Source: Escherichia phage ECOP18. Taken from it: a stretch of DNA of 64,000 nucleotides. How positions within the stretch are numbered: position 1 is the first letter of the stretch; each line of letters begins with the position of its first letter. The translations under genes were made by a program, and so were the position numbers. Below the pieces are notes generated by a model, which was given only the letters and a program-made list of their open reading frames with translations, was not told where the DNA came from and ran no database searches. Location: sequence record NC_105825.1; one strand, 5' to 3'. This document shows positions 21,008 to 33,170 of the stretch, piece by piece.

Positions 21008-21202
21008 TTATACTTTTCCATAGTATACGGAAACTGTCTTACCAGTTTGGTTCATGACATATGCTACTTCATCTTCTTTTAAAAAGATGGCTTGGTCTAC
21101 TCCAACTATAGCCAATCTTTTATTTCTAGGATTAAAGCTTACACTTTTGCCTGTATGAATCTGTTCCCCATTCTTGGCTGACATTATTTTAATTGTTAAC
21201 AT
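21008..21202 (-). CDS. hypothetical protein
   Basis: ORF track 64 aa. Confidence 0.4.
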   Translation of the reverse strand: MLTIKIMSAKNGEQIHTGKSVSFNPRNKRLAIVGVDQAIFLKEDEVAYVMNQTGKTVSVYYGKV

Positions 21203-21239
21203 AGCTGCTCCTAAAGTTAGCTATCTCTAGCTCTTTTAA

Positions 21240-21316
21240 TGGTAGTTAGTAGTGGATTTGAACCACTGTAGTCGCTCCGTATGAAGGAGGTGCATAACCA
21301 CTCTGCCAACTAACTA
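21240..21316 (-). tRNA. tRNA with CAT anticodon (Met or Ile2)
   Basis: Cloverleaf read by eye: acceptor TAGTTAG/CTAACTA, T-loop TTCAAAT, anticodon loop TTCATAC, CCA encoded. Confidence 0.55.
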
Positions 21317-21482
21317 GTTAATTCTTTATAGGTTAGATCTAGAAGATCTTTCTTACTGATAAGTCCTTCTCTATATTGGTCAATAAACATATCTATTCTA
21401 GAGTTCTCTGAGACTTCTATATCAGAAAGTTCAGCAAATATTTTTGCAAGTTTATCAATATCTTCCATACATAACCTTAATT

Positions 21483-21559
21483 TGGTACTCCGGGAGGGAT
21501 TTAAACCCCCGATCTCTCGGTTATCAGCCGAGTGCTTTAGATCGCTAAGCTACCGAAGC
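21483..21559 (-). tRNA. tRNA-Ile (GAT)
   Basis: Acceptor GCTTCGG/CCGGAGT, D-stem GCTT/AAGC, anticodon stem CTCGG/CCGAG, loop CTGATAA, CCA encoded. Confidence 0.6.
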
Positions 21560-21560
21560 A

Positions 21561-21740
21561 TTAACATTTTACAGCAGAACGTTTGCCATTTCTAGGTGCA
21601 CCTGGAAGTCGTGCACGTTCTGCCATTCTTCTCTTAATCTTTGAGATATTTTCTAGTGTTTGTTCCTCCGGCTTAATACCTGAAACACTACACCACTGAT
21701 TACCATCCCATGCGGTAATGATCATAACACCATTACTCAT
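21561..21740 (-). CDS. hypothetical protein
   Basis: ORF track frame; start uncertain (internal Met). Confidence 0.3.
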   Translation of the reverse strand: MSNGVMIITAWDGNQWCSVSGIKPEEQTLENISKIKRRMAERARLPGAPRNGKRSAVKC

Positions 21741-21766
21741 GATCTTTTCTGTAAAAGTAATCCTCA

Positions 21767-22060
21767 TTATAGCAACTCGTCTAAGCAAGAGGTATATTTA
21801 AGTTTACCATCTTTATCTACTTTGATTTCGACTTCCGCTCGTGGTACTTGATGAACTACACCATGAATCATCTTATAGCGAATGCCTTTAGCTGGTTCAT
21901 GCTCTTTTGGAAATACTTGCTTAACCGTTACTACCTTAAAACCCTCACGCGGTGTTAACACTACTACTTGATCACCTTCTTTGATCTTCCAAGAGCCAGG
22001 AAATTCATAGGTATAGCGTTGACCACCAGTTTGGAACACAACAGAAAGATAACGTTTCAT
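21767..22060 (-). CDS. hypothetical protein
   Basis: ORF track 97 aa; RBS in the leader. Confidence 0.5.
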   Translation of the reverse strand: MKRYLSVVFQTGGQRYTYEFPGSWKIKEGDQVVVLTPREGFKVVTVKQVFPKEHEPAKGIRYKMIHGVVHQVPRAEVEIKVDKDGKLKYTSCLDELL

Positions 22061-22090
22061 TTGGCTTCCCTCTCATTAATTTATATAAAT

Positions 22091-22119
22091 ATTATAACAA
22101 TAAATAAGAGAGAAAGCAA
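22091..22119 (-). promoter_or_regulatory. early sigma70-type promoter (TTGCTT-17-TATAAT)
   Basis: Same architecture. Confidence 0.6.
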
Positions 22120-22127
22120 ATGAATTT

Positions 22128-22295
22128 TTAATAAAGTTTAGTCACTTCATAAACTATACTACGAGATTCTTTATTACGTTCTATTAAATTAGAATATGCT
22201 TTTTCAGCTTCATTTTTAGTATTAAAGTCTATAACGTGGGAGGTATTCGCTCTATTTGATTGACTATACCAGATAACTACTAATAATTTAAACAT
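22128..22295 (-). CDS. hypothetical protein
   Basis: ORF track frame; start moved so it does not overlap the tRNA at 22310. Confidence 0.35.
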   Translation of the reverse strand: MFKLLVVIWYSQSNRANTSHVIDFNTKNEAEKAYSNLIERNKESRSIVYEVTKLY

Positions 22296-22309
22296 AATAG
22301 TCCTTAAGT

Positions 22310-22396
22310 TGGTGCTGGGCACAGGATTCGAACCTGTAACGGGATTACTCCTCCTGATTACAAATCAGGTGCATTCAACCATTCTGCCGACCCAGC
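22310..22396 (-). tRNA. tRNA, 87 nt with long variable arm, isotype unresolved
   Basis: Acceptor GCTGGGT/GCCCAGC, T-arm ACAGG-TTCGAAT-CCTGT, CCA encoded; anticodon loop reads TTTGTAA (UGU), which does not fit a type II scaffold. Confidence 0.45.
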
Positions 22397-22561
22397 AGAA
22401 CCCGTTATTTCAACGGGATTTCTTTTTCAATAATAGGAGACTTATCAGTCATAACCGCCATTGCCATTTGTTGTAGAAATTCAAAGGTGAAGGCTACACG
22501 TTCTTCACCAATCTCTACTTCTACACGTTTCTTTTGTTTATCGATCTTGACTTTTAGGTTA

Positions 22562-22813
22562 TCAGCCATTAGAGAGTACAGTACTGGTAGTTGGCAATAC
22601 TACAGATGAAGCAACAGTGTTTAAATGCTTTCTCCAGTCTAGGTTAAATTGTTTTCGAAACTCTTCATAAGGTTCTTCTGGATAAAAGCTAAAACCTCCT
22701 TTCTCATCATTCAGGATAACAGAGCCGTCAGTTTGTTCGTATGCTCGGTATGTTTCTCCAATAACAATAACTCGTTTTTCGGTACTTTTATTACGAAACT
22801 CAAAAACGTGCAT
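22562..22813 (-). CDS. hypothetical protein
   Basis: ORF track 83 aa. Confidence 0.45.
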   Translation of the reverse strand: MHVFEFRNKSTEKRVIVIGETYRAYEQTDGSVILNDEKGGFSFYPEEPYEEFRKQFNLDWRKHLNTVASSVVLPTTSTVLSNG

Positions 22814-22829
22814 AATGTTTCCTTAAAGT

Positions 22830-22906
22830 TGGAGCGGCTAGAGGGAATCGAACCCTACTCAGCGAGGCTTGGAAGGCCTGCGGCACAACCCGTGTGCTTA
22901 ACCGCT
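22830..22906 (-). tRNA. tRNA-Gly (TCC), tentative
   Basis: T-loop TTCGATT, anticodon loop CTTCCAA; acceptor register ambiguous by 1 nt. Confidence 0.45.
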
Positions 22907-22913
22907 TATTGTT

Positions 22914-22989
22914 TGGCTGGAGAAGGAGGAATCGAACCTACCATTAACGGAGTCAAAGGCCGTTGTGCTAACCGTTACACTACTCTCCA
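22914..22989 (-). tRNA. tRNA-Gln (TTG)
   Basis: 76 nt, standard numbering fits: acceptor TGGAGAG/TTCTCCA, D-stem GTGT/GCAC, loop CTTTGAC, T-loop TTCGATT, CCA. Confidence 0.6.
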
Positions 22990-22995
22990 ATTATT

Positions 22996-23071
22996 TGGCT
23001 GGGATGCCACGGATCGAACGTGGAACCTTCGGAGTCAGAGGCCGACGATCTGCCAATTGATCTACATCCCA
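22996..23071 (-). tRNA. tRNA-Gln (CTG)
   Basis: 76 nt: acceptor TGGGATG/CATCCCA, D-stem GATC/GATC, loop CTCTGAC, T-stem CCACG/CGTGG, CCA. Confidence 0.6.
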
Positions 23072-23083
23072 ATAATTTTTATT

Positions 23084-23278
23084 CTACGGAAAAATTGTTG
23101 TTGGCTCAGATTCTTCCAAACGTTTGCCTTCATGATCAACACGAATAACGCCGCATCCTTCGCAAATCACAACTGCACCATAACCTTCTTTGACCTCAGC
23201 TTCTGTAATCAAACCAGAAAGATCACCAGTATCTTTACCCCACATATCAATGGAGCATTGTTTGCAGAAATCAGCCAT
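23084..23278 (-). CDS. small Cys-containing protein
   Basis: ORF track 64 aa; CxxC...CxxC. Confidence 0.4.
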   Translation of the reverse strand: MADFCKQCSIDMWGKDTGDLSGLITEAEVKEGYGAVVICEGCGVIRVDHEGKRLEESEPTTIFP

Positions 23279-23303
23279 ATTTTATTTCCTATTTAAGTTA
23301 ATT

Positions 23304-23380
23304 TGGGGTGGCTAGTGAAATTCGAATCCACATAGGCCTGATTCACAATCAGGATCATTAACCAATTATGATATAGCCAC
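23304..23380 (-). tRNA. tRNA-His (GTG)
   Basis: Acceptor GTGGCTA/TAGCCAC, anticodon stem CCTGA/TCAGG, loop TTGTGAA, T-loop TTCGAAT, discriminator C, CCA; no encoded G-1. Confidence 0.6.
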
Positions 23381-23611
23381 AATTGAAAACTCGCAGGGTT
23401 AGCGAAACCTTCCTCAATTAGCATGTTCTAGAATACTAATCAAGTTATCTCCTATTGCACGCAGCTCAAGACGAGTACGAATTTTCAATTGTGGCGGCTC
23501 TCAGAAACTCTTCTACTCTAGTCTTAGCAGCTTACTCCCGAACGCATGTCGGGGAAGTCTTACTAAGCGCATCAAATAGCACCGTTACACTTTGAGCCAT
23601 TGGTGTATTAA

Positions 23612-23700
23612 GAAGCAGAAGGACTTGAACCTTCACGAGATAGACCATTTATCTCAGCCGCTTTATGAGGTATGTTGCAGGGAGTGGATGTTCCCTATAA
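23612..23700 (-). ncRNA. tRNA-like element (T-arm GAAGG-TTCAAGT-CCTTC), no clean cloverleaf found
   Basis: Strong T-arm motif but I could not pair an acceptor stem by eye. Confidence 0.25.
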
Positions 23701-23746
23701 ACCTTTTAGGCAGCCCCGTCTACCGATTCCGGCATACTTCAGGATT

Positions 23747-23841
23747 TGGAGGTAGGTAAGGGGATCGAACCCTTACACCGTATCACTACGATCAACCGAT
23801 TTCAAGTCGGAGTCCAGCGCCAGCCATTGGATTGACCTACC
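23747..23841 (-). tRNA. tRNA-Ser (TGA), type II
   Basis: About 95 nt; acceptor GGTAGGT/ACCTACC, anticodon stem CCGA/TCGG, loop CTTGAAA, long variable arm, CCA. Confidence 0.5.
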
Positions 23842-23853
23842 ATATAAATTGTT

Positions 23854-23944
23854 TGGCGGAAGAGGAGAGATTTGAACTCTCAAGCCGTTTTACCAGTCAG
23901 CCACTTTCCAAGCGGTTTTCGTCACCAATTCGATTTGCTCTTCC
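23854..23944 (-). tRNA. tRNA-Ser (GGA), type II
   Basis: 91 nt; acceptor GGAAGAG/CTCTTCC perfect, T-arm GAGAG-TTCAAAT-CTCTC, anticodon loop TTGGAAA, CCA. Confidence 0.5.
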
Positions 23945-23964
23945 AATAACAAGATGATGCCTCT

Positions 23965-24045
23965 ATCACACCAGGCAGTTACGCCTCGCTGGGATTCGAA
24001 CCCATTAAAACAGCTCAACCGAGATAGTAGGTTTAATTTACTCTG
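23965..24045 (-). ncRNA. tRNA-like fragment (T-arm TGGG-TTCGAAT-CCCA) without a pairable acceptor
   Basis: T-arm motif only. Confidence 0.25.
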
Positions 24046-24056
24046 ACCATCAAATT

Positions 24057-24133
24057 TGGTGCGTGACAAGGGATTCGAACCCTCAAAACCCGACTTCTAA
24101 GGACGGTATGTATGCCAATTCCATCAATCACGC
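24057..24133 (-). tRNA. tRNA, type I length, anticodon loop reads CTTAGAA (UAG)
   Basis: Acceptor GCGTGAT/GTCACGC, T-arm GAGGG-TTCGAAT-CCCTT, CCA; D-arm weak; a Leu-type anticodon in a short-variable-arm scaffold. Confidence 0.45.
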
Positions 24134-24138
24134 GTATT

Positions 24139-24217
24139 TGGTGGAGAATAACGGAATCGAACCGTTCTGATGTCCTCGGTGCAAGCGAGGTGTCCACTCC
24201 ATGCAGACCCATTCCCC
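24139..24217 (-). tRNA. tRNA-Ala (TGC)
   Basis: Acceptor GGGGAAT/ATTCTCC with a G3-U70 wobble, anticodon stem CCTCG/CGAGG, loop CTTGCAC, CCA. Confidence 0.6.
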
Positions 24218-24455
24218 AAATTATTTAGTTTACTAAGGCTATTAGCTCGGCGTAACTACAGCACCTTCGCTTCGAGCGGAAGGAACCGCGTCATCTCGCA
24301 AACCCGATACACTATTCAGTTGCCACTGAATCTAGTGGACTAATCTAGAACTTCTCCCGAATCGTAGGGATCGTGCTTTTTGGCAGCCAGTCCTAGGTCG
24401 AACTAATACCTTAGTGAACTATGATGAGGATTTCTCCTCATCAATTTATATAAAT

Positions 24456-24484
24456 ATTATAACAAGAAATTAAGCATTAAGCAA
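24456..24484 (-). promoter_or_regulatory. early sigma70-type promoter (TTGCTT-17-TATAAT) driving a non-coding leader and tRNAs
   Basis: Same architecture; no CDS for about 240 nt downstream on the minus strand. Confidence 0.55.
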
Positions 24485-24502
24485 CTGCGTTTTTCTTGAA
24501 AT

Positions 24503-24581
24503 TGGTAGATCGCCTGGGACTCGAACCCAGAACCTTCCGATTAAAAGTCGGATGCTACTAAACCTATTGAGCTAGCGATCT
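24503..24581 (-). tRNA. tRNA-Lys (TTT)
   Basis: Acceptor AGATCGC/GCGATCT, anticodon stem TCCGA/TCGGA, loop CTTTTAA, T-arm CTGGG-TTCGAGT-CCCAG, CCA. Confidence 0.6.
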
Positions 24582-24586
24582 ATTAG

Positions 24587-24750
24587 TAACCATTATACAC
24601 TTCTTTAATAGAGTGGACTTTTAAGTAAGGGTGATTAGTACTAAACTCTACCATTACTTCATCCCAATTTTTACCATAATGAGCGAGTAAGGATTTTGAT
24701 GTATTCTTACCTAACCGTTTGTCACTTACTACTAATCGAAATACTTTCAT
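24587..24750 (-). CDS. small hypothetical protein (54 aa)
   Basis: Hand-translated MKVFRLVVSDKRLGK...; below the ORF-track cutoff. Confidence 0.3.
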
Positions 24751-24770
24751 TTCGAAATCCTCTATTAAAA

Positions 24771-24848
24771 TGGAAGCGGGTGCAGGAATCGAACCTACCT
24801 CTTTCTAGCTTATGAGACTAGCGATCTCTACCAGAGATCTAACCCGCA
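24771..24848 (-). tRNA. tRNA with CAT anticodon (Met/fMet/Ile2)
   Basis: D-stem GATC/GATC, anticodon stem CTAGT/GCTAG, loop CTCATAA, T-loop TTCGATT, CCA; U1-U72 unpaired. Confidence 0.55.
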
Positions 24849-24854
24849 ATTGTT

Positions 24855-24930
24855 TGGTCAGTGCGGCAGGACTCGAACCTGCGACCCGAAGCATCCAAGG
24901 CTCCCACGCTACCAACTGCGCTACGCACTG
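24855..24930 (-). tRNA. tRNA-Pro (TGG)
   Basis: Acceptor CAGTGCG/CGCACTG, D-stem GCGC, anticodon stem GGAGC/GCTTC, loop CTTGGAT, CCA. Confidence 0.6.
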
Positions 24931-24939
24931 TTAATTCTT

Positions 24940-25137
24940 TTATTGTGGAGGAATATTAATAATTCGTCCGTCTACACAATAAACGGTACTAGGAATTGTA
25001 CTATATATGTAGAAATTCTTTATATTACTCTCTCCGCCACAGAAATTTTTAGCAAATTCATACTCTTTATTAATGGTTGAGTCAAGTTTAAAACAACCAG
25101 TAAGTAGGAATACAGACAGCAGTAAAACTTTTTTCAT
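24940..25137 (-). CDS. small lipoprotein
   Basis: 65 aa; signal peptide with lipobox LLTGC; RBS in the leader. Confidence 0.5.
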   Translation of the reverse strand: MKKVLLLSVFLLTGCFKLDSTINKEYEFAKNFCGGESNIKNFYIYSTIPSTVYCVDGRIINIPPQ

Positions 25138-25169
25138 TTTGCTTTCCTTCTCAACACTTTATAAGGTAT

Positions 25170-25198
25170 ATTATACAGAGAATTAAGCATAATAGCAA
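25170..25198 (-). promoter_or_regulatory. early sigma70-type promoter (TTGCTA-17-TATAAT)
   Basis: Same architecture. Confidence 0.6.
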
Positions 25199-25337
25199 AT
25201 GAATTTTTAATAAATTTACTTATTGTGTAGGCCACCTGGAGGCTACCAACCCCACGGCTGACAAAGAAGTTTGCGAGACCTCTCTTAAGTGCCAGAATAG
25301 ACCCGCCGATCTATCGGAACCTACATAATAAGTAAAC

Positions 25338-25470
25338 TTTATAGTGTCATTCTAGACAGGACTCGAACCTGTTATCACTTGTGCGGACTTACGAGAACCA
25401 TTCTTTCACTCGAATCGAACGAGCTTCTGCCCTCGCCAAGCTGGTTTCCCCATCAACCACGCTAGAATGT
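25338..25470 (-). ncRNA. roughly 130-nt tRNA-like structured RNA, unresolved
   Basis: Ends ATTCTAG...CTAGAAT pair perfectly; two T-arm-like motifs (TTCGATT and TTCGAGT) inside; no CDS. Confidence 0.3.
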
Positions 25471-25632
25471 TTGATTGTTTTCAGTGCAAGAGTCCGAGTC
25501 TTGGACACGACCGCTTCGCAAGTACATAGGCAGCTTATCATGAGTCAGCACTTCCGAATTGCTAGCTCCGTGTTCTGCACTGAAATTTTATTAGTTTAAC
25601 CGTAAAGTATTATCTACTTCACCATTAATTGT

Positions 25633-25938
25633 TCAGCATTCTTCTGGGATTGCTGGTGTAGCCTTATATTCCCACCATTCAGAACCGTCGTATTCACCAC
25701 GTTCTAACCAAGTTCCATCAGTAAACCACACGTTACCATAAAGCAATTGCCCACCGAAACCAGAATCATATTTAAAGTCTAGATTATTTAGAAAATCTTC
25801 AATATCTTTTTCTGTATAACCTACGGGTAACACCCAAACTTCTTTGTCCCCATAATAACCGAATTCTATCTTAATACACTTAACTTCAGAATTAATATTC
25901 TTTAAGGCAAGTAACAATTCTTCTTTAGCATTAATCAT
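25633..25938 (-). CDS. hypothetical protein
   Basis: ORF track 101 aa. Confidence 0.5.
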   Translation of the reverse strand: MINAKEELLLALKNINSEVKCIKIEFGYYGDKEVWVLPVGYTEKDIEDFLNNLDFKYDSGFGGQLLYGNVWFTDGTWLERGEYDGSEWWEYKATPAIPEEC

Positions 25939-25963
25939 AGCATATTTCTCGTACTAGTTTAAT

Positions 25964-26040
25964 TTGGCGCGACCGATGGGATTTGAACCCACATTCTCTC
26001 CCGTGACAGGGGAGTACCATTACCAAGCCAGCCCCGGTCG
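25964..26040 (-). tRNA. tRNA-Asp (GTC)
   Basis: Acceptor GCGACCG/CGGTCGC, anticodon stem CTCCC/GGGAG, loop CTGTCAC, T-loop TTCAAAT, CCA. Confidence 0.6.
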
Positions 26041-26050
26041 CATAATTCAT

Positions 26051-26236
26051 TTACTCAGCTTTGAGTTTTTCAATAGCTGCATTAAGTTCTTTAAGAAACT
26101 TTTTTCGTACATTAAGACGGTTGAGACTTACTAGTATATCATGTTTAAGTTCTTCGATGTATTTCTTCTCAACTTCAATATTGTTGATAGTGCTATCACG
26201 ATGAACTTCTAGCTGTGCAATTACATTCTTGGACAT
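26051..26236 (-). CDS. hypothetical coiled-coil protein
   Basis: ORF track 61 aa. Confidence 0.4.
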   Translation of the reverse strand: MSKNVIAQLEVHRDSTINNIEVEKKYIEELKHDILVSLNRLNVRKKFLKELNAAIEKLKAE

Positions 26237-26338
26237 GCTTGTTTCCTCAGTTATTAATGAAAATGGTATCTGTGACTGAATTCGATGTCAGCAATGATAG
26301 CTGGTTGGCTACCGGTTTACTTAACTCTACACAGAATT

Positions 26339-26421
26339 TGGCGGGCCGTGTAGGATTCGAACCTACGTTGTCTTTCGACATGGATTAACAGTCCACCGCC
26401 AAACCGCTTGGCTAACGACCC
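26339..26421 (-). tRNA. tRNA, type-II-like (83 nt), anticodon loop CTGTTAA (GUU)
   Basis: Acceptor GGGTCGT/ACGGCCC, 3-bp D-stem, variable-arm hairpin GTC-GAAA-GAC, T-arm GTAGG-TTCGAAT-CCTAC, CCA; Tyr-like scaffold with an Asn anticodon. Confidence 0.45.
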
Positions 26422-26573
26422 TAAATTTATATTGCTGACTAGGATTTTCACCTAGACGGAGTTAGCACCGTAGCGTGTAGCGGCATACCTCTCCAAACCG
26501 TGCCTCATCTTTCAATTACGGAGACAGTGTTCCTACGCGTGCCTGAATTGATTTAACAACTCTTTCAGCAAAT

Positions 26574-26649
26574 TGGACGACCGCATGAGATTTGAACTCA
26601 CATAAAAAGGATTTGCAATCCTTCGCCTAAGCCATTCAGCCAACGGTCG
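26574..26649 (-). tRNA. tRNA-Cys (GCA)
   Basis: Acceptor CGACCGT/GCGGTCG, anticodon stem AAGGA/TCCTT, loop TTGCAAA, T-loop TTCAAAT, CCA. Confidence 0.6.
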
Positions 26650-26697
26650 ATTTATCTTGTTCTGTCATGTTGCTTCTCCAGTTCAATTTATGTAATT

Positions 26698-26726
26698 ATT
26701 ATACAGAACTTTTGGAAACTAAGCAA
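26698..26726 (-). promoter_or_regulatory. early sigma70-type promoter (TTGCTT-17-TATAAT)
   Basis: Same architecture; precedes tRNA-Cys on the minus strand. Confidence 0.55.
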
Positions 26727-27006
26727 CTACATTTTTTAAAAATTTGATGCCTTTCTTTTTCTTCTTATATTTCCACGTTAAGGGATTCTGTCGATTATGA
26801 ACGCTTGAGATCTTTGTCTCGTCAAAGTTCTTCAATATCATGTAATCACAGGATAATTGTTCTAATGGAATGTGATCACCGTCAAAAGCGTATACATAAG
26901 GCTGTTGACTAGCACGATAATGATAGACTTTGTTAATTCTACGTTTCAGCAACTTATCCGCGCAGTAAATAAAGAAGTTTTCAGGATGCATCAGCAGCTC
27001 CCTCAA
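26719..27006 (-). CDS. hypothetical protein
   Basis: ORF track 95 aa; its 3' end overlaps the promoter footprint, so boundaries are uncertain. Confidence 0.4.
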   Translation of the reverse strand: MRELLMHPENFFIYCADKLLKRRINKVYHYRASQQPYVYAFDGDHIPLEQLSCDYMILKNFDETKISSVHNRQNPLTWKYKKKKKGIKFLKNVVA

Positions 27007-27099
27007 TTTGGTGCACCCTGTTCGTATCGAACGAACCTCTCAAGCTCTTCAGGCAAGCGCTAATCCATCTCAGCTAAAGGTGCAAATTTTGGCAAACCT

Positions 27100-27170
27100 A
27101 CTAGGACTTGAACCTAGACCGTACGGTTTTGGAGACCGACATGCTGTCCAGTAACACTCTAGGAATGCAG
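27100..27170 (-). ncRNA. tRNA-like element (T-arm CTAGG-TTCAAGT-CCTAG), acceptor not pairable
   Basis: T-arm motif and an encoded CCA but no matching 5' acceptor strand. Confidence 0.25.
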
Positions 27171-27173
27171 GAT

Positions 27174-27250
27174 TGGCGTCCTGTGCGGGGATCGAACCCA
27201 CAAATCCTACCTTGAAAGGGTAGTGACTTTACCAGTTTGTCTAACAGGAC
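27174..27250 (-). tRNA. tRNA-Glu (TTC)
   Basis: Acceptor GTCCTGT/ACAGGAC, anticodon stem CTACC/GGTAG, loop CTTTCAA, T-loop TTCGATC, CCA. Confidence 0.6.
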
Positions 27251-27257
27251 TTAAATT

Positions 27258-27348
27258 TGGTGTTGGATGATGGAGTCGAACCACCCGAGACCCTTCCGAG
27301 TCGGCAGATTTACAGTCTGCTTCGCTACCTCTACGATACTAATCCAAC
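27258..27348 (-). tRNA. tRNA-Tyr (GTA), type II
   Basis: 91 nt; anticodon arm AGCAGACTGTAAATCTGC identical to the E. coli tRNA-Tyr arm as I recall it; acceptor GTTGGAT/ATCCAAC, CCA. Confidence 0.7.
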
Positions 27349-27476
27349 ATATTTAAAAGTATTCAAATACTAGTTTAAACACTTTTAGATATGTTTCCAA
27401 ATTAGATAACTATTATATCAAGTTTTATGGCACTGAGCAAGTCAAATTTTAAAGAACTTGCTCAGTGCTGTATTAG

Positions 27477-27752
27477 TTAGTCGAACTTAGGAGCGACAGT
27501 TAAGGAGAATGGAAGTTCGAAAACTTCTTCGCCCTCATCACTAACAGTAATTACACGACCTTTAAGTTCAGACATTGAAATATCAATATCAGCTTTTGCA
27601 TCTGGAGCCATGCCAGCTTCAATACATTTAGCTTTAACTTCCGGCAGAAGTTCTACATCGTAGAAATAAAGCCATTCAATCTCACCTTCCCAGCCTTCCC
27701 AGGATTTACAGATTGCACTTTCAATACCAGTTGCTATAACACGATTTTGCAT
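27477..27752 (-). CDS. hypothetical protein
   Basis: ORF track 91 aa; RBS aaggag in the leader. Confidence 0.5.
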   Translation of the reverse strand: MQNRVIATGIESAICKSWEGWEGEIEWLYFYDVELLPEVKAKCIEAGMAPDAKADIDISMSELKGRVITVSDEGEEVFELPFSLTVAPKFD

Positions 27753-27782
27753 TCGTTAACTCCTTCATCAATTTATATAACT

Positions 27783-27812
27783 ATTATACCAGAAATTTAA
27801 AGCAAAAGGCAA
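27783..27812 (-). promoter_or_regulatory. early sigma70-type promoter (TTGCCT-18-TATAAT)
   Basis: Variant -35 and 18-bp spacer. Confidence 0.5.
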
Positions 27813-27842
27813 GTACATTTTTAAAAATTCTGTTTGGAGGAG

Positions 27843-28049
27843 CTAAACTCCAGATTCTTCAGCTAAGTCTAGGCTAATAAGAGATATAGCCATAATTGCT
27901 GCTCCGTGTTCTCTTTCTCCTGTCTCTTTAGCTAGGGTTATAATATCAAGAAATTGCTTATGAAAGTCTGCAACCTCTTGAGTCATACCTGCCTCAGCAA
28001 TCATGCCTTTAAGCATGAAACGTTGTGCGGTAATTTCGGGATTAGCCAT
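27843..28049 (-). CDS. hypothetical protein
   Basis: ORF track 68 aa. Confidence 0.45.
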   Translation of the reverse strand: MANPEITAQRFMLKGMIAEAGMTQEVADFHKQFLDIITLAKETGEREHGAAIMAISLISLDLAEESGV

Positions 28050-28224
28050 GTTGTTTCTCCAGTTTCATGTTTAATAGTCTACAAATAAAATCAATGTCTT
28101 CATCTGTGCCTAGATCTCTATCTTCAAGAGTTGCCTTGAAGTTTTTCGTCAATTCCATGAGGATAACTTCTATAGAACGACGTGTTGGCGGAGGTGGATG
28201 TCTATACATCTTATTTCCTTAAGT

Positions 28225-28301
28225 TGGTAGGGGTGGTGGGATTCGAACCCACAAAACCTGAATTTTAAGTCCAGTACCTATGCCAATTCGATTACACCCC
28301 C
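28225..28301 (-). tRNA. tRNA, type I length, anticodon loop CTTAAAA (UAA)
   Basis: 77 nt; acceptor GGGGGTG/CACCCCT, anticodon stem CTGGA/TTCAG, T-arm GTGGG-TTCGAAT-CCCAC, CCA; Leu-type anticodon in a short-variable-arm scaffold. Confidence 0.45.
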
Positions 28302-28402
28302 ATGTAATCAGTTTATTAGTTGATACATATTATAGCCTAGTGAAAATCCTACTACTAGTCCCACAAACCAACCAATATAATAATCTTTTAGTTTCACAGG
28401 TA

Positions 28403-28588
28403 TTATCCTCGTTCAATATCTAGGGAAACACCGCAGTTAGGATTAATACCTGTACCGTTGCAATTTGAACAAATCCAGATATTGCAAAAAGTATCTCCTG
28501 CTTCTGCATCAGAACTTTCACCAATTCCCCTACACTCAGGGCAGGCACATTCTTCTAGCTCTTGCTTGAGTTCTTGAAACTTGGACAT
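28403..28588 (-). CDS. zinc-ribbon-like small protein
   Basis: 61 aa; CPECRG...CSNCNG. Confidence 0.45.
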   Translation of the reverse strand: MSKFQELKQELEECACPECRGIGESSDAEAGDTFCNIWICSNCNGTGINPNCGVSLDIERG

Positions 28589-28597
28589 ATAGTCTCC

Positions 28598-28786
28598 TTA
28601 GTCAATTACTTTTGAGGCTTCAAGGGAGTCGATATAGTATACGTTTTCTACCATAATCATATAATCTGCCACTTTATCCATAGCTTGGGCCTCAGAGGTA
28701 GCTCTGGCTAACCTATATCCTTTTTTATATTCATCCGGGTATTCTCTATCTTGAATAAATACAACATAAACTATGTATAATTCCAC
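28598..28786 (-). CDS. hypothetical protein
   Basis: ORF track frame truncated to a GTG start with RBS so it does not run into the tRNA at 28806. Confidence 0.35.
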   Translation of the reverse strand: MELYIVYVVFIQDREYPDEYKKGYRLARATSEAQAMDKVADYMIMVENVYYIDSLEASKVID

Positions 28787-28805
28787 TTGTAATCCCCTAA
28801 TTAAG

Positions 28806-28884
28806 TTGGTGGCTCCCCGAGGATTCGAACCTACGTACCTTCCGGTTATGAGCCGGGTGCTCATACCATATGAGCTTGAGAACC
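28806..28884 (-). tRNA. tRNA with CAT anticodon (third CAT tRNA)
   Basis: Acceptor GGTTCTC/GGGAGCC with G-U pairs, D-stem GCTC/GAGC, anticodon loop CTCATAA, T-loop TTCGAAT, CCA; T-stem weak. Confidence 0.45.
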
Positions 28885-28890
28885 AGAATT

Positions 28891-28979
28891 TGGCGGAAGA
28901 AGTGGGAATCGAACCCACAAGGCTATATTTCAAACCGACAGATTAGCAATCTGCTGCAATACCGTTATGCTATTCTTCC
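28891..28979 (-). tRNA. tRNA-Ser (GCT), type II
   Basis: 89 nt; acceptor GGAAGAA/TTCTTCC, anticodon stem GCAGA/TCTGT, loop TTGCTAA, CCA. Confidence 0.55.
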
Positions 28980-28994
28980 GAATTTATAAGATAT

Positions 28995-29023
28995 ATTATA
29001 TTAGAAATTTAGCTTCATAGCAA
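28995..29023 (-). promoter_or_regulatory. early sigma70-type promoter (TTGCTA-17-TATAAT) for a tRNA transcript
   Basis: Same architecture. Confidence 0.55.
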
Positions 29024-33084: not shown

Positions 33085-33170
33085 CAGTTCTTACCGACCG
33101 TAGGATTCGAACCTACATCTTCCACCAGTTACGGCTTGATAATACCAATTATACTAGGACGGCAGTGTTA
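33085..33170 (-). ncRNA. tRNA-like element (T-arm GTAGG-TTCGAAT-CCTAC), no clean cloverleaf
   Basis: T-arm motif inside an 830-bp ORF-free stretch that is transcribed from the promoter at 33387. Confidence 0.25.

What the first reader, a model, noticed from the sequence alone, without database searches (positions are those of the whole stretch)
21240..28979. tRNA cluster with anticodon/scaffold combinations that look non-canonical
About 23 tRNA genes were folded by eye. Four deserve checking: two standard-length (type I) tRNAs carry Leu-type anticodons (UAG at 24057-24133 and UAA at 28225-28301), although bacterial tRNA-Leu is normally type II; and two long-variable-arm (type II) scaffolds carry GUU (26339-26421) and UGU (22310-22396) loops instead of Leu/Ser/Tyr anticodons. 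There are also three CAT-anticodon genes, none with the classic initiator features. If real, these could reflect codon reassignment-like behaviour or decoy tRNAs; they could equally be manual mis-folds.
Basis: inference. Interest (0 to 1): 0.5.

Follow-up and report, generated by a model that had tools for sequence, protein, structure and literature searches.

The report
Phage tRNAs with swapped variable-arm architecture
A T5-like phage carries working-looking leucine tRNAs that lack the long extra arm every bacterial leucine tRNA has, and threonine and asparagine tRNAs that have gained a small extra arm; these belong to large, mostly phage-specific tRNA classes that probably keep the normal genetic code but may present a different shape to host anti-phage tRNA nucleases.

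Summary
ARAGORN and the Rfam tRNA model reproduce all four genes at the stated coordinates: Leu(UAG) and Leu(UAA) with 5-nt variable loops, and Thr(UGU) and Asn(GUU) with 15- and 13-nt variable hairpins. The window is a T5-like phage.

Reference T5 has conventional alleles (type II Leu, type I Thr and Asn) in the same gene slots. The odd genes are therefore replaced alleles, not mis-folds.

Each belongs to a large phage family whose stems covary. The type I Leu family keeps the E. coli LeuRS identity set: A73, U8:A14, A15:U48, G18G19 and A20a, each in 124-127 of 127 sequences. The Thr and Asn genes keep the ThrRS and AsnRS identity elements. Their extra arm is a covarying 2-4 bp stem, usually capped by a GNRA tetraloop.

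In NrdA, NrdB and ThyA, CUA, UUA, ACA and AAC codons align with Leu, Thr and Asn. Codon reassignment is not supported.

Thr(UGU), Asn(GUU) and Lys(UUU) are the published targets of the PARIS nuclease AriB. Variable loops are published cleavage sites of Septu and retron-Eco7. Scaffold change as immune evasion is my favoured but unproven reading.

One of the three CAT genes does carry initiator hallmarks.

The parts
24057..24133 (-). tRNA-Leu(UAG), type I: 5-nt variable loop GUUUU, 3-bp D-stem, 11-nt D-loop GAAUUGGCAUA, A73
   Evidence: ARAGORN. Rfam 47.5 bits with alignment. The D-arm has the same architecture as E. coli leuW, leuZ and leuV. The identical sequence occurs in 129 phage records.
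28225..28301 (-). tRNA-Leu(UAA), type I: 5-nt variable loop GUUUU, G1.U72, A73, D-loop GAAUUGGCAUA
   Evidence: ARAGORN. Rfam 57.4 bits. Identical in 18 IMG/VR T5-like loci. Reference T5 has no counterpart.
22310..22396 (-). tRNA-Thr(UGU) on a class II-like scaffold: 3-bp D-stem, D-loop GAAUGGUUGAA, 15-nt variable region; G1-C72, C2-G71, G35, U36, A73; private C at position 8 (window 22389)
   Evidence: ARAGORN. Rfam 54.1 bits with an 11-nt insertion in the variable region. 101 phage records hold it nearly full-length.
22338..22352 (-). Variable arm of tRNA-Thr: A GGA GUAA UCC CGUU (3-bp stem, GNRA tetraloop, 4-nt tail)
   Evidence: The stem covaries in relatives: 3/3 pairs change on both sides and 100% of cells are paired.
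26339..26421 (-). tRNA-Asn(GUU) with a 13-nt variable region; G34, U35, U36, G73
   Evidence: ARAGORN. Rfam 59.0 bits with a 10-nt insertion in the variable region. 649 phage records match, 533 of them over at least 80% of the gene.
26367..26379 (-). Variable arm of tRNA-Asn: GUC GAAA GAC AAC (3-bp stem, GNRA tetraloop, 3-nt tail)
   Evidence: In relatives with a 15-nt variable region, all four stem pairs change on both sides.
24503..24581 (-). tRNA-Lys(UUU), 79 nt with an enlarged D-loop. It is the third member of the PARIS-target trio and a replaced allele (71% identical to reference T5)
   Evidence: Targets of AriB are from PMC12409363.
24771..24848 (-). CAT gene 2, initiator-like: U1xU72 mismatch, G2-C71, C3-G70, A11:U24; no GGG/CCC in the anticodon stem
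   Evidence: Annotated tRNA-fMet in T5_ev212. 100% identical in reference T5.
21240..21315 (-). CAT gene 1 (Met or Ile2-type; not assignable here)
   Evidence: ARAGORN. Rfam 51.5 bits.
28807..28884 (-). CAT gene 3 (elongator Met or Ile2-type; weak T-stem)
   Evidence: Rfam 40.3 bits. ARAGORN finds it only at a relaxed threshold.
21240..28979 (-). tRNA-rich region of a T5-like phage. Gene order is the same as in reference T5, but 11 slots hold replaced alleles

Best explanation
The four genes are functional elongator tRNAs that keep their conventional amino-acid identities (Leu, Leu, Thr, Asn) and are charged by the host synthetases. They are built on non-standard scaffolds that belong to large, mostly phage-borne structural classes.

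(1) Leucine tRNAs that have lost the long variable arm. They keep the D-arm, elbow and A73 elements, which are what E. coli LeuRS reads.

(2) Thr(UGU) and Asn(GUU) tRNAs that carry a short variable hairpin, usually GNRA-capped, together with a class II-style D-arm. They keep the anticodon, acceptor and discriminator elements read by ThrRS and AsnRS.

They supply codons the AT-rich phage uses heavily (CUA, UUA, ACA, AAC).

Inferred step: the altered shapes are kept because they make the phage copies poor substrates for host tRNA-cleaving defence nucleases. The extra arm emerges next to the 40|41 site that PARIS AriB cuts, on the face that AriB spans up to the D-loop. Removing the arm from tRNA-Leu removes a type of site that Septu and retron-Eco7 nucleases are known to cut in tRNA-Tyr.

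The genes spread as cassettes that replace conventional alleles in the same slot.
For: Shown here
- Folds are confirmed by two methods.
- Covariation is strong. In 63 type I Leu sequences that are less than 85% identical, 98.7% of cells pair, 20/20 pairs change on both sides, 0/500 shuffles reach the observed values, and slid controls give 36-48%. The Asn variable stem covaries at 4/4 pairs and the Thr stem at 3/3 pairs.
- In 127 distinct 77-nt phage Leu tRNAs: U8 127, A14 127, A15 126, G18G19 126, A20a 124, U48 127, A73 126. U8, A14, A15 and A73 were not part of the search pattern.
- The nearest neighbours of type I Leu are all Leu tRNAs.
- The loss is specific to Leu. In loci not chosen for Leu, 39/95 Leu tRNAs are type I, against 0/80 Ser and 2/33 Tyr.
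- Thr has G1-C72, C2-G71, G35, U36 and A73. Asn has G34, U35, U36 and G73.
- 33/52 distinct Asn variable regions and 13/27 Thr variable regions carry GNRA tetraloops on stems of differing sequence.
- The phage uses UUA for 27% and CUA for 20% of Leu codons.
- In NrdA, NrdB and ThyA aligned to E. coli, CUA aligns with Leu at 16/28 positions and UUA at 12/23. ACA aligns with Thr at 11/21 and AAC with Asn at 10/21. These rates are at least as high as for synonymous codons.
- The same slots in reference T5 hold conventional alleles that are 62-67% identical, while 12 other tRNAs are 96-100% identical.
- The classes are phage-centred. It hit only 30 stretches in 185,579 species genomes, mostly dense tRNA arrays on MAG contigs.

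From papers
- E. coli LeuRS needs A73 and D/T-loop tertiary elements, not the variable arm (PMC9976931).
- AriB cleaves E. coli Lys(UUU), Thr(UGU) and Asn(GUU) at 40|41 and contacts D-loop U16-U17 (PMC12409363).
- Bas33 is phage HildyBeyeler (PMC11619597). Its only Thr(UGU) and Asn(GUU) genes are variable-arm alleles, and it has no Lys(UUU). T5 tRNA-Lys alone rescues it from PARIS, whereas T7 needs Lys plus Thr.
Against: - No aminoacylation, expression or cleavage data exist for these particular alleles.
- E. coli LeuRS failed to charge the type I tRNA-Leu(CAA) of Streptomyces coelicolor. Its leucine-specific domain is reported to favour tRNAs with a large variable loop (PMC6614811).
- The window's Thr and Asn keep the host-like AriB motif (UAAUCA, UAAUCC), so resistance would have to come from shape alone.
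- In metagenomic phages, long-arm alleles do not keep that motif more often than short ones: Thr 5/9 against 24/68, Asn 4/8 against 27/54. That test is inconclusive.
- No nuclease that targets the variable arm of tRNA-Leu is known to me.
- The Bas33 inference is indirect.
- The family statistics come from pattern-selected loci and one gene finder.
- The window's Thr copy has an unusual C8.
Confidence: 0.6

Rival explanations
1. The tRNAs are functional with normal identities, but the scaffold changes are neutral or simply economical. Phage tRNA-Leu loses an arm that LeuRS does not need. The small hairpins in Asn and Thr are tolerated insertions, or relics of descent from class II tRNAs. On this reading they have nothing to do with host nucleases.
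For: - The loss occurs only in the one class II isotype whose bacterial synthetase ignores the arm: 39/95 Leu against 0/80 Ser (PMC9976931).
- Related alleles show a graded series of Leu(UAG) lengths: 87, 85, 81, 78 and 77 nt.
- The 5' half of the variable-arm Thr is closest to Ser and Tyr tRNAs, which fits descent from a class II donor.
- The motif test gave no signal for AriB-driven selection.
Against: - The Asn and Thr hairpins are kept by compensatory changes and a strong GNRA preference across very different phages. That is purifying selection, not drift.
- Arm gain is concentrated in a few isoacceptors: Ile(UAU) 13/21, Asn 7/54, Lys(UUU) 4/48 and Thr(UGU) 4/56. It is 0 in Ala, Arg, Asp, Gln, Gly, His, Phe and Val.
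- Three of those isoacceptors are the AriB targets.
- Replaced alleles in T5-like phages include known nuclease targets: Lys, Thr, Asn and Tyr.
Confidence: 0.25
2. They act mainly as decoys or competitive inhibitors that soak up host tRNA nucleases or other tRNA-binding factors, rather than as decoders.
For: - The Thr and Asn genes keep the host-like AriB recognition motif U36AAUC (PMC12409363).
- That paper raises the possibility that overexpressed viral tRNAs inhibit AriB by competition.
Against: - Full cloverleaves, encoded CCA ends, intact synthetase identity sets and anticodons matched to the phage's frequent codons are all conserved. A pure decoy would not need these.
Confidence: 0.08
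3. Mischarging or recoding: the variable-arm Asn (G73, G2-C71, C11-G24, extra arm) is charged by SerRS. Alternatively, the variable-arm Thr (A73, class II scaffold) is charged by LeuRS, like nematode nev-tRNAs. Or the type I 'Leu' tRNAs carry another amino acid.
For: - The Asn gene carries several SerRS determinants plus an extra arm.
- nev-tRNAs are a precedent for class II tRNAs with other anticodons being leucylated (PMC3333845).
Against: - AAC and AAU codons align with Asn and ACA with Thr in conserved enzymes. Ser appears at 1 of 21 AAC positions.
- The arm is only 3-4 bp, against roughly 5-8 bp stems within the 16-21-nt variable regions of the E. coli Ser tRNAs read.
- The Thr D-loop places G18G19 as in Ser tRNAs, not Leu tRNAs, and it has A73 rather than G73, so it fits neither LeuRS nor SerRS.
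- The ThrRS and AsnRS elements are conserved across phage families.
- 47% of the phage's Leu codons are CUA or UUA, so misreading them would be ruinous.
Confidence: 0.04
4. They are decaying pseudogenes or prediction artefacts.
For: - Some GenBank records label homologues 'tRNA-OTHER' or 'tRNA-Pseudo-TAG'.
- The window's Thr has C8.
- The cluster does contain degenerate tRNA-like genes.
Against: - Two independent methods agree on the folds.
- Scores exceed the threshold by 18-30 bits.
- The sequences are identical in hundreds of phages.
- Compensatory changes are pervasive.
Confidence: 0.03

Closest known systems
Type I tRNA-Leu of Streptomyces coelicolor (CAA) and of animal mitochondria (PMC6614811; PMC9976931)
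   Same: Leucine anticodon on a tRNA with a 4-5-nt variable loop. U8:A14 is important.
   Different: - The present genes are phage-borne and found across several enterobacterial phage families.
- They keep the full E. coli-type D-arm and A73.
- They must rely on a host LeuRS (E. coli type) that was reported not to charge the Streptomyces type I tRNA.
- All Leu anticodons examined (UAA, UAG, CAA, CAG, GAG) occur in this form.
Engineered E. coli tRNA-Leu variants lacking the variable arm (reviewed in PMC9976931)
   Same: They show that A73 plus the D/T-loop tertiary interactions suffice for E. coli LeuRS. The phage genes keep exactly those elements.
   Different: Those are laboratory constructs. 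The present genes are natural, abundant and under selection.
Nematode nev-tRNAs: class II tRNAs with Gly or Ile anticodons (PMC3333845)
   Same: A variable arm on a tRNA whose anticodon is not Leu, Ser or Tyr.
   Different: - nev-tRNAs have full Leu-type scaffolds and are leucylated.
- The phage Thr and Asn arms are mini-hairpins of 2-4 bp.
- The cognate Thr and Asn identity elements are kept.
- Codon evidence shows no recoding.
Reference-T5 tRNA-Lys(UUU), Thr(UGU) and Asn(GUU) that neutralise PARIS (PMC11464382; PMC12409363)
   Same: Same isoacceptors, same genomic slots, same phage group.
   Different: The T5 alleles are ordinary type I tRNAs that escape through substitutions at positions 39-41. 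The window's alleles are 62-71% identical to them and keep a host-like U39-C40. They differ instead in scaffold: a variable arm in Thr and Asn, and an enlarged D-loop in Lys.
T5 and T6 tRNA-Tyr against retron-Eco7 and Septu PtuAB (PMC11555353; PMC13096335)
   Same: The variable loop or arm of a phage tRNA is the feature that decides nuclease sensitivity.
   Different: That case concerns sequence and shape changes within an existing arm of a class II tRNA. It does not concern loss of the arm (Leu) or gain of one by a class I isotype.

Membership tests
Canonical bacterial tRNA-Leu (class II) | Long variable arm (more than 10 nt, with a stem) | tested here: not met
   Both genes have a 5-nt variable loop, GUUUU.
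Canonical bacterial tRNA-Leu (class II) | A73 discriminator | tested here: met
   A73 in both genes. 126/127 in the family.
Canonical bacterial tRNA-Leu (class II) | Leu-type D-arm: 3-bp stem, U8:A14, A15 with U48, G18G19 after a 4-nt alpha region, A20a | tested here: met
   AUG/GAAUUGGCAUA/CAU compared with E. coli GCG/GAAUUGGUAGA/CGC. These positions are near-invariant in the family.
Canonical bacterial tRNA-Leu (class II) | Leucylation by host LeuRS | not testable with these tools
   Needs an aminoacylation assay. The literature is split.
Type I tRNA-Leu (mitochondrial / Streptomyces kind) | Leu anticodon with a 4-5-nt variable loop in an otherwise complete cloverleaf | tested here: met
   Covariation.
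tRNA-Thr (E. coli ThrRS identity) | G1-C72, C2-G71, G35, U36 | tested here: met
   GCUGGGU.../...GCCCAGC-A with anticodon UGU. The same holds in Aeromonas PX29 and in BUCT-ZZ01.
tRNA-Thr (E. coli ThrRS identity) | Class I scaffold (4-5-nt variable loop) | tested here: not met
   15-nt variable region and a class II-type D-arm.
tRNA-Asn (AsnRS identity) | G34, U35, U36 and G73 | tested here: met
   The anticodon arm is close to that of E. coli asnT. The nearest neighbours are short Asn tRNAs.
tRNA-Ser (SerRS identity) | Long variable arm in Ser orientation, plus G73, G2-C71 and C11-G24 | tested here: inconclusive
   The Asn gene has G73, G2-C71, C11-G24 and an arm. The arm is only 3 bp plus a tetraloop, followed by 3 unpaired nt. 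AAC codons are not Ser in conserved proteins.
nev-tRNA-like (class II scaffold, foreign anticodon, leucylated) | Leu-type D-loop and arm with A73, leading to Leu charging | tested here: not met
   Thr has A73, but the G18G19 placement is Ser-type (3-nt alpha region and 4-nt beta region). ACA codons align with Thr. Charging itself is not testable here.
Bacterial initiator tRNA (for the CAT genes) | 1x72 mismatch, with G2-C71 and C3-G70 | tested here: met
   24771-24848 has U1xU72, G2-C71 and C3-G70. This is not met by the other two CAT genes.
Bacterial initiator tRNA (for the CAT genes) | A11:U24 | tested here: met
   The D-stem is GAUC/GAUC in 24771-24848.
Bacterial initiator tRNA (for the CAT genes) | Three consecutive G-C pairs (29-31 with 39-41) in the anticodon stem | tested here: not met
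   The stem is CUAGU/GCUAG. Relatives in T4-like phages do have GGG/CCC.
Anti-defence phage tRNA (nuclease-resistant substitute) | Same anticodon as a host tRNA cleaved by a defence nuclease | tested here: met
   Thr(UGU), Asn(GUU) and Lys(UUU) are the AriB targets. No such target is known for Leu.
Anti-defence phage tRNA (nuclease-resistant substitute) | Resistance to the nuclease and rescue of infection | not testable with these tools
   Only indirect evidence is available: Bas33, which carries these alleles, needs just tRNA-Lys to escape PARIS.

The most novel reading that the evidence does not exclude
Phages have evolved shape-based tRNA immune evasion as a general strategy. This is distinct from the anticodon-loop and cleavage-site substitutions described so far.

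(a) The variable arm is stripped from tRNA-Leu, which would make E. coli-type LeuRS a natural user of type I tRNA-Leu, contrary to the published view that it charges only type II.

(b) A GNRA-capped mini variable arm, with a matching class II-type D-arm, is added to ANN-decoding tRNAs: Asn(GUU), Thr(UGU), Ile(UAU) and Lys(UUU). The arm would act as a steric shield for the 3' strand of the anticodon stem against AriB-like nucleases.

The alternative alleles circulate as exchangeable cassettes in T5-like tRNA regions.
Probability: 0.35. Interest if true: 0.8.

Novelty: new variant of a known kind. Interest (0 to 1): 0.62.

Why it matters
Textbook tRNA biology holds that tRNA-Leu is class II everywhere except animal mitochondria. 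The one bacterial exception (Streptomyces) was published as a notable finding.

In this survey about four in ten phage tRNA-Leu genes are type I in loci that were not chosen for that feature. They keep the E. coli LeuRS identity set. If they are charged, the assumed substrate range of enterobacterial LeuRS needs revising, and they offer natural minimal Leu scaffolds for engineering.

The extra arm on Thr(UGU) and Asn(GUU) sits on two of the three tRNAs targeted by PARIS. That makes a concrete and cheap experiment possible: does an added arm protect a tRNA from a defence nuclease? It would also add a second, structural axis to the phage-host tRNA arms race.

For annotation, these genes are inconsistently called Leu, 'OTHER' or 'pseudo' in public records.

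Tried and rejected
- BLAST of the 77-nt Leu(UAG) against 5,426 E. coli genomes found nothing even at E<=10. I therefore fetched host tRNAs by coordinate instead.
- Whole-molecule pairwise identity to E. coli tRNAs was uninformative, at about 0.65-0.75 for everything. I replaced it with position-specific identity elements and a half-molecule nearest-neighbour census.
- I tested whether long-arm Thr and Asn alleles keep the host AriB motif more often than short alleles. No difference appeared at small n, so this neither supports nor refutes the shield idea.
- Literature searches for a prior description of type I tRNA-Leu, or of variable-arm Asn or Thr, in phages found none. The library holds only open-access text, and the 1980s T5 tRNA papers are not in it. 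Two query attempts failed on term length.
- Pseudogene, mis-fold and recoding readings are rejected for the reasons given under the rival explanations.
- A phage-encoded LeuRS was not searched for. From my own knowledge of published T5 genome annotations, no aminoacyl-tRNA synthetase gene is annotated in T5. Neither the window nor the 16.5-kb T5 stretch read was tested for one.
- tRNAscan-SE isotype models were not available.

Full report
WHAT IS THERE

The window is a T5-like phage (Tequintavirus). The stretch 21200-29000 is 99.8% identical to Escherichia phage T5_ev212 and 99.7% to EC148. It matches the reference T5 genome AY587007 at only 92% identity over 68% of its length.

ARAGORN finds 21 tRNA genes, all on the minus strand.
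- Leu(UAG), 24057-24133, 77 nt.
- Leu(UAA), 28225-28301, 77 nt.
- Thr(UGU), 22310-22396, 87 nt.
- Asn(GUU), 26339-26421, 83 nt.

The Rfam tRNA covariance model scores them 47.5, 57.4, 54.1 and 59.0 bits against a gathering score of 29. Its alignments show an ordinary 5-nt variable loop in Leu(UAG). They place 11 extra bases (Thr) and 10 extra bases (Asn) exactly in the variable region.

ANATOMY

Both Leu genes have three features in common:
- A 3-bp D-stem.
- The 11-nt D-loop GAAUUGGCAUA.
- A 5-nt variable loop GUUUU, followed by A73.

The D-arm matches the architecture of E. coli leuW, leuZ and leuV (GAAUUGGUAGA and close variants). I fetched those genes from MG1655 for comparison. The genes therefore look like normal Leu tRNAs with the variable arm removed. 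U48 is kept opposite A15.

Thr(UGU) has:
- G1-C72, C2-G71 and A73.
- A class II-style D-arm, GCA/GAAUGGUUGAA/UGC. It is most like E. coli serT, GCC/GAGCGGUUGAA/GGC.
- The variable region A-GGA-GUAA-UCC-CGUU.

Asn(GUU) has:
- G73.
- An anticodon arm close to that of E. coli asnT.
- The variable region GUC-GAAA-GAC-AAC.

THE SAME SLOTS HOLD CONVENTIONAL ALLELES IN REFERENCE T5

Gene order is the same in the window and in AY587007. In T5 proper, however, Leu(UAG) is an 85-nt type II tRNA, Thr(UGU) is a 75-nt type I tRNA and Asn(GUU) is a 78-nt type I tRNA. T5 has no Leu(UAA).

Identity between the two phages, slot by slot, is bimodal:
- Twelve tRNAs are 96-100% identical.
- Eleven same-anticodon tRNAs are only 62-73% identical. 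These are Tyr, Asn, Pro, Lys, Ala, Leu(UAG), two Ser, two Gln and Thr.

These slots therefore hold replaced alleles rather than diverged orthologues. Among T5-like IMG/VR contigs, Leu(UAG) occurs as 77-, 81-, 85- and 87-nt alleles. Proteus phage Stubb has a 78-nt version. Together these form a graded series of arm lengths.

EACH ODD GENE BELONGS TO A LARGE PHAGE FAMILY

BLAST against 50,697 phage records gave the following.
- Type I Leu(UAG): 567 records. They span T5-like phages, Felixounavirus, Seunavirus, a Vibrio Demerecviridae phage and Proteus phage Stubb.
- Long-arm Asn: 649 records. They include T4-like Serratia, Klebsiella, Enterobacter, Cronobacter and Aeromonas phages.
- Long-arm Thr: 106 records. 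They include Aeromonas phage PX29.

The type I Leu pattern matched only 30 stretches in one genome each of 185,579 bacterial and archaeal species. Most of those are dense tRNA arrays on MAG contigs, and none is in Enterobacterales.

In loci that were not chosen for their Leu genes, the counts are:
- Leu: 39 of 95 are type I.
- Ser: 0 of 80 are type I.
- Tyr: 2 of 33 are type I.

THE GENES ARE UNDER SELECTION AS tRNAs

For 63 type I Leu sequences that are less than 85% identical to each other:
- 98.7% of stem cells pair.
- All 20 pairs show changes on both sides.
- No shuffle of 500 reaches the observed values.
- Sliding the partners drops pairing to 36-48%.

Among 127 distinct 77-mers the following are almost invariant: U8 127, A14 127, A15 126, G18G19 126, A20a 124, A22 126, U48 127 and A73 126. 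This is the E. coli LeuRS identity set as reviewed in PMC9976931. U8, A14, A15 and A73 were not specified in my search pattern, so their conservation is independent evidence.

The nearest neighbours of type I Leu(UAG) are exclusively other Leu tRNAs.

The variable regions show the same kind of constraint.
- Asn: 52 distinct variable regions were found, and 33 carry a GNRA tetraloop (25 of them GAAA) on stems of unrelated sequence. All four stem pairs covary.
- Thr: 13 of 27 variable regions are GNRA-capped. All three stem pairs covary, with 100% pairing.

The 5' half of long-arm Thr is nearest to Ser and Tyr tRNAs, while its 3' half is nearest to ordinary Thr(UGU). Long-arm Asn is nearest to ordinary Asn in both halves.

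NO SIGN OF RECODING

The phage uses UUA for 27% and CUA for 20% of its Leu codons. From standard E. coli codon tables these are minor host codons; I did not compute the host figures here.

I aligned the window's NrdA, NrdB and ThyA with the E. coli orthologues. The results are:

| Codon | Positions aligned with the expected residue | Synonymous codons for comparison |
|---|---|---|
| CUA | Leu at 16/28 | CUG, CUU, CUC, UUG: 28-45% |
| UUA | Leu at 12/23 | CUG, CUU, CUC, UUG: 28-45% |
| ACA | Thr at 11/21 | ACU 10/39 |
| AAC | Asn at 10/21 (Ser at 1/21) | AAU 11/31 |

The codons therefore have their standard meaning. An abundant phage tRNA that misread them would be harmful.

LIKELY FUNCTION

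T5-like tRNA regions are dispensable for growth but counter defence systems (PMC11464382, PMC11555353).

The PARIS nuclease AriB cleaves E. coli Lys(UUU), Thr(UGU) and Asn(GUU) between positions 40 and 41. Its second protomer is modelled on D-loop U16-U17. The T5 variants of these three tRNAs together neutralise PARIS (PMC12409363).

In this window those same three isoacceptors are replaced alleles with altered scaffolds: a variable arm in Thr and Asn, and a 12-nt D-loop in Lys. They keep a host-like U39-C40. The reference T5 alleles instead carry substitutions at positions 39-41.

The variable arm leaves the core directly after the 3' strand of the anticodon stem, which is where AriB cuts. 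A steric-shield role is therefore plausible, but it is an inference.

There is one piece of indirect experimental support.
- Bas33 is phage HildyBeyeler (PMC11619597).
- Its only Thr(UGU) and Asn(GUU) genes are long-arm alleles, 87 and 86 nt. It also has both type I Leu genes and no Lys(UUU).
- In the PARIS study, Bas33 was rescued by T5 tRNA-Lys alone, whereas T7 needed Lys plus Thr.

Variable loops are established nuclease targets. [quoted passage not shown] For tRNA-Leu no such nuclease is known. A neutral or economical loss is a serious rival.

CAVEATS

- E. coli LeuRS did not charge the Streptomyces type I tRNA-Leu (PMC6614811).
- The motif-retention test was inconclusive.
- The family counts come from pattern-selected loci and from ARAGORN only.
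- The window's Thr copy has C at position 8 (window 22389), where all related records have T.

THE CAT GENES

The gene at 24771-24848 has U1xU72, G2-C71, C3-G70 and A11:U24. These are the formylation-type initiator hallmarks. It lacks the three G-C pairs of the anticodon stem, although relatives in T4-like phages have them.

The other two CAT genes (21240-21315 and 28807-28884) cannot be assigned to Met or Ile2 with the tools available.

VERDICT

The finding is real. It is an entry point to an apparently undescribed regularity of phage tRNAs.

The code-changing interpretation is not supported. Conventional identity on unconventional scaffolds is well supported. Immune evasion as the reason for the scaffolds is plausible and directly testable.

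Noticed in passing
window 21240-28979 compared with L002 (AY587007): Identity of same-slot tRNAs between this phage and reference T5 is bimodal. Twelve tRNAs are 96-100% identical. Eleven are 62-73% identical: Tyr, Asn, Pro, Lys, Ala, Leu-UAG, Ser-GGA, Ser-UGA, Gln x2 and Thr. This indicates cassette-like allele replacement inside a conserved gene order.
   Followed up: partly
window 22389: The tRNA-Thr(UGU) has C at position 8, where about 100 related phage records, including T5_ev212 and Bas33, have the near-universal U8. The best BLAST identity is 98.9%. It is either a private mutation or a sequencing error.
   Followed up: partly
window 24139-24217: The tRNA-Ala(UGC) is 79 nt, with an unusual D-arm and an 8-nt variable region. 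ARAGORN calls it, but the Rfam tRNA model does not report it even at E<=1. It keeps G3:U70. The same allele is in Proteus phage Stubb, Cronobacter phage EspYZU14 and Bas33. The T5 tRNA-Ala is reported as a Schlafen nuclease target (PMC13056530).
   Followed up: no
window 24503-24581: The tRNA-Lys(UUU) is 79 nt with a 12-nt D-loop. It reads U36AAUCG41, against UAAUCA in E. coli and UAAACC in reference T5. It is 71% identical to the T5 anti-PARIS tRNA-Lys.
   Followed up: partly
window 22830-22905, 23747-23841, 23854-23944, 25400-25467, 33091-33164: Several degenerate or atypical tRNA-like genes are found only at relaxed thresholds: Gly(UCC), Ser(UGA), Ser(GGA), a dubious 68-nt Arg(GCG), and a 74-nt gene with an unclear anticodon loop that Rfam scores at 35.5 bits. 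The two Ser genes are marked as pseudogenes in AY587007.
   Followed up: partly
window 23400-23745, 24220-24440, 25215-25640, 26430-26570 (minus strand): There are G+C-rich stretches between the tRNA genes with no tRNA call or annotated CDS. They may encode other stable RNAs or tRNA remnants. Part of 26430-26601 matches Klebsiella phage DNA at 87%.
   Followed up: no
IMG/VR loci L048-L154 (for example the 92-99-nt tRNA-Ile genes listed): In the Leu-selected loci, 13 of 21 distinct phage tRNA-Ile(UAU) genes are over 80 nt. Most examples listed across all loci are 92-95 nt and carry a long variable arm containing CGCCAGAUUAGCG. This is reminiscent of nematode nev-tRNA-Ile(UAU). Mini GNRA-capped variable arms also occur in some Cys, Trp, Lys and Pro tRNAs. 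None occur in Ala, Arg, Asp, Gln, Gly, His, Phe or Val.
   Followed up: no
L268-L297 (genome-contig hits): In cellular genome assemblies, type I tRNA-Leu genes sit almost only in dense arrays of 15-36 tRNAs per 8 kb or less. These are on MAG contigs and in a few complete genomes, such as Candidatus Uabimicrobium and Anabaena cylindrica.
   Followed up: partly
L043 (KR014248) and NC_048853: Public records annotate homologues of the type I Leu(UAG) inconsistently. It appears as 'tRNA-Leu', as 'tRNA-OTHER' and as 'tRNA-Pseudo-TAG'.
   Followed up: yes
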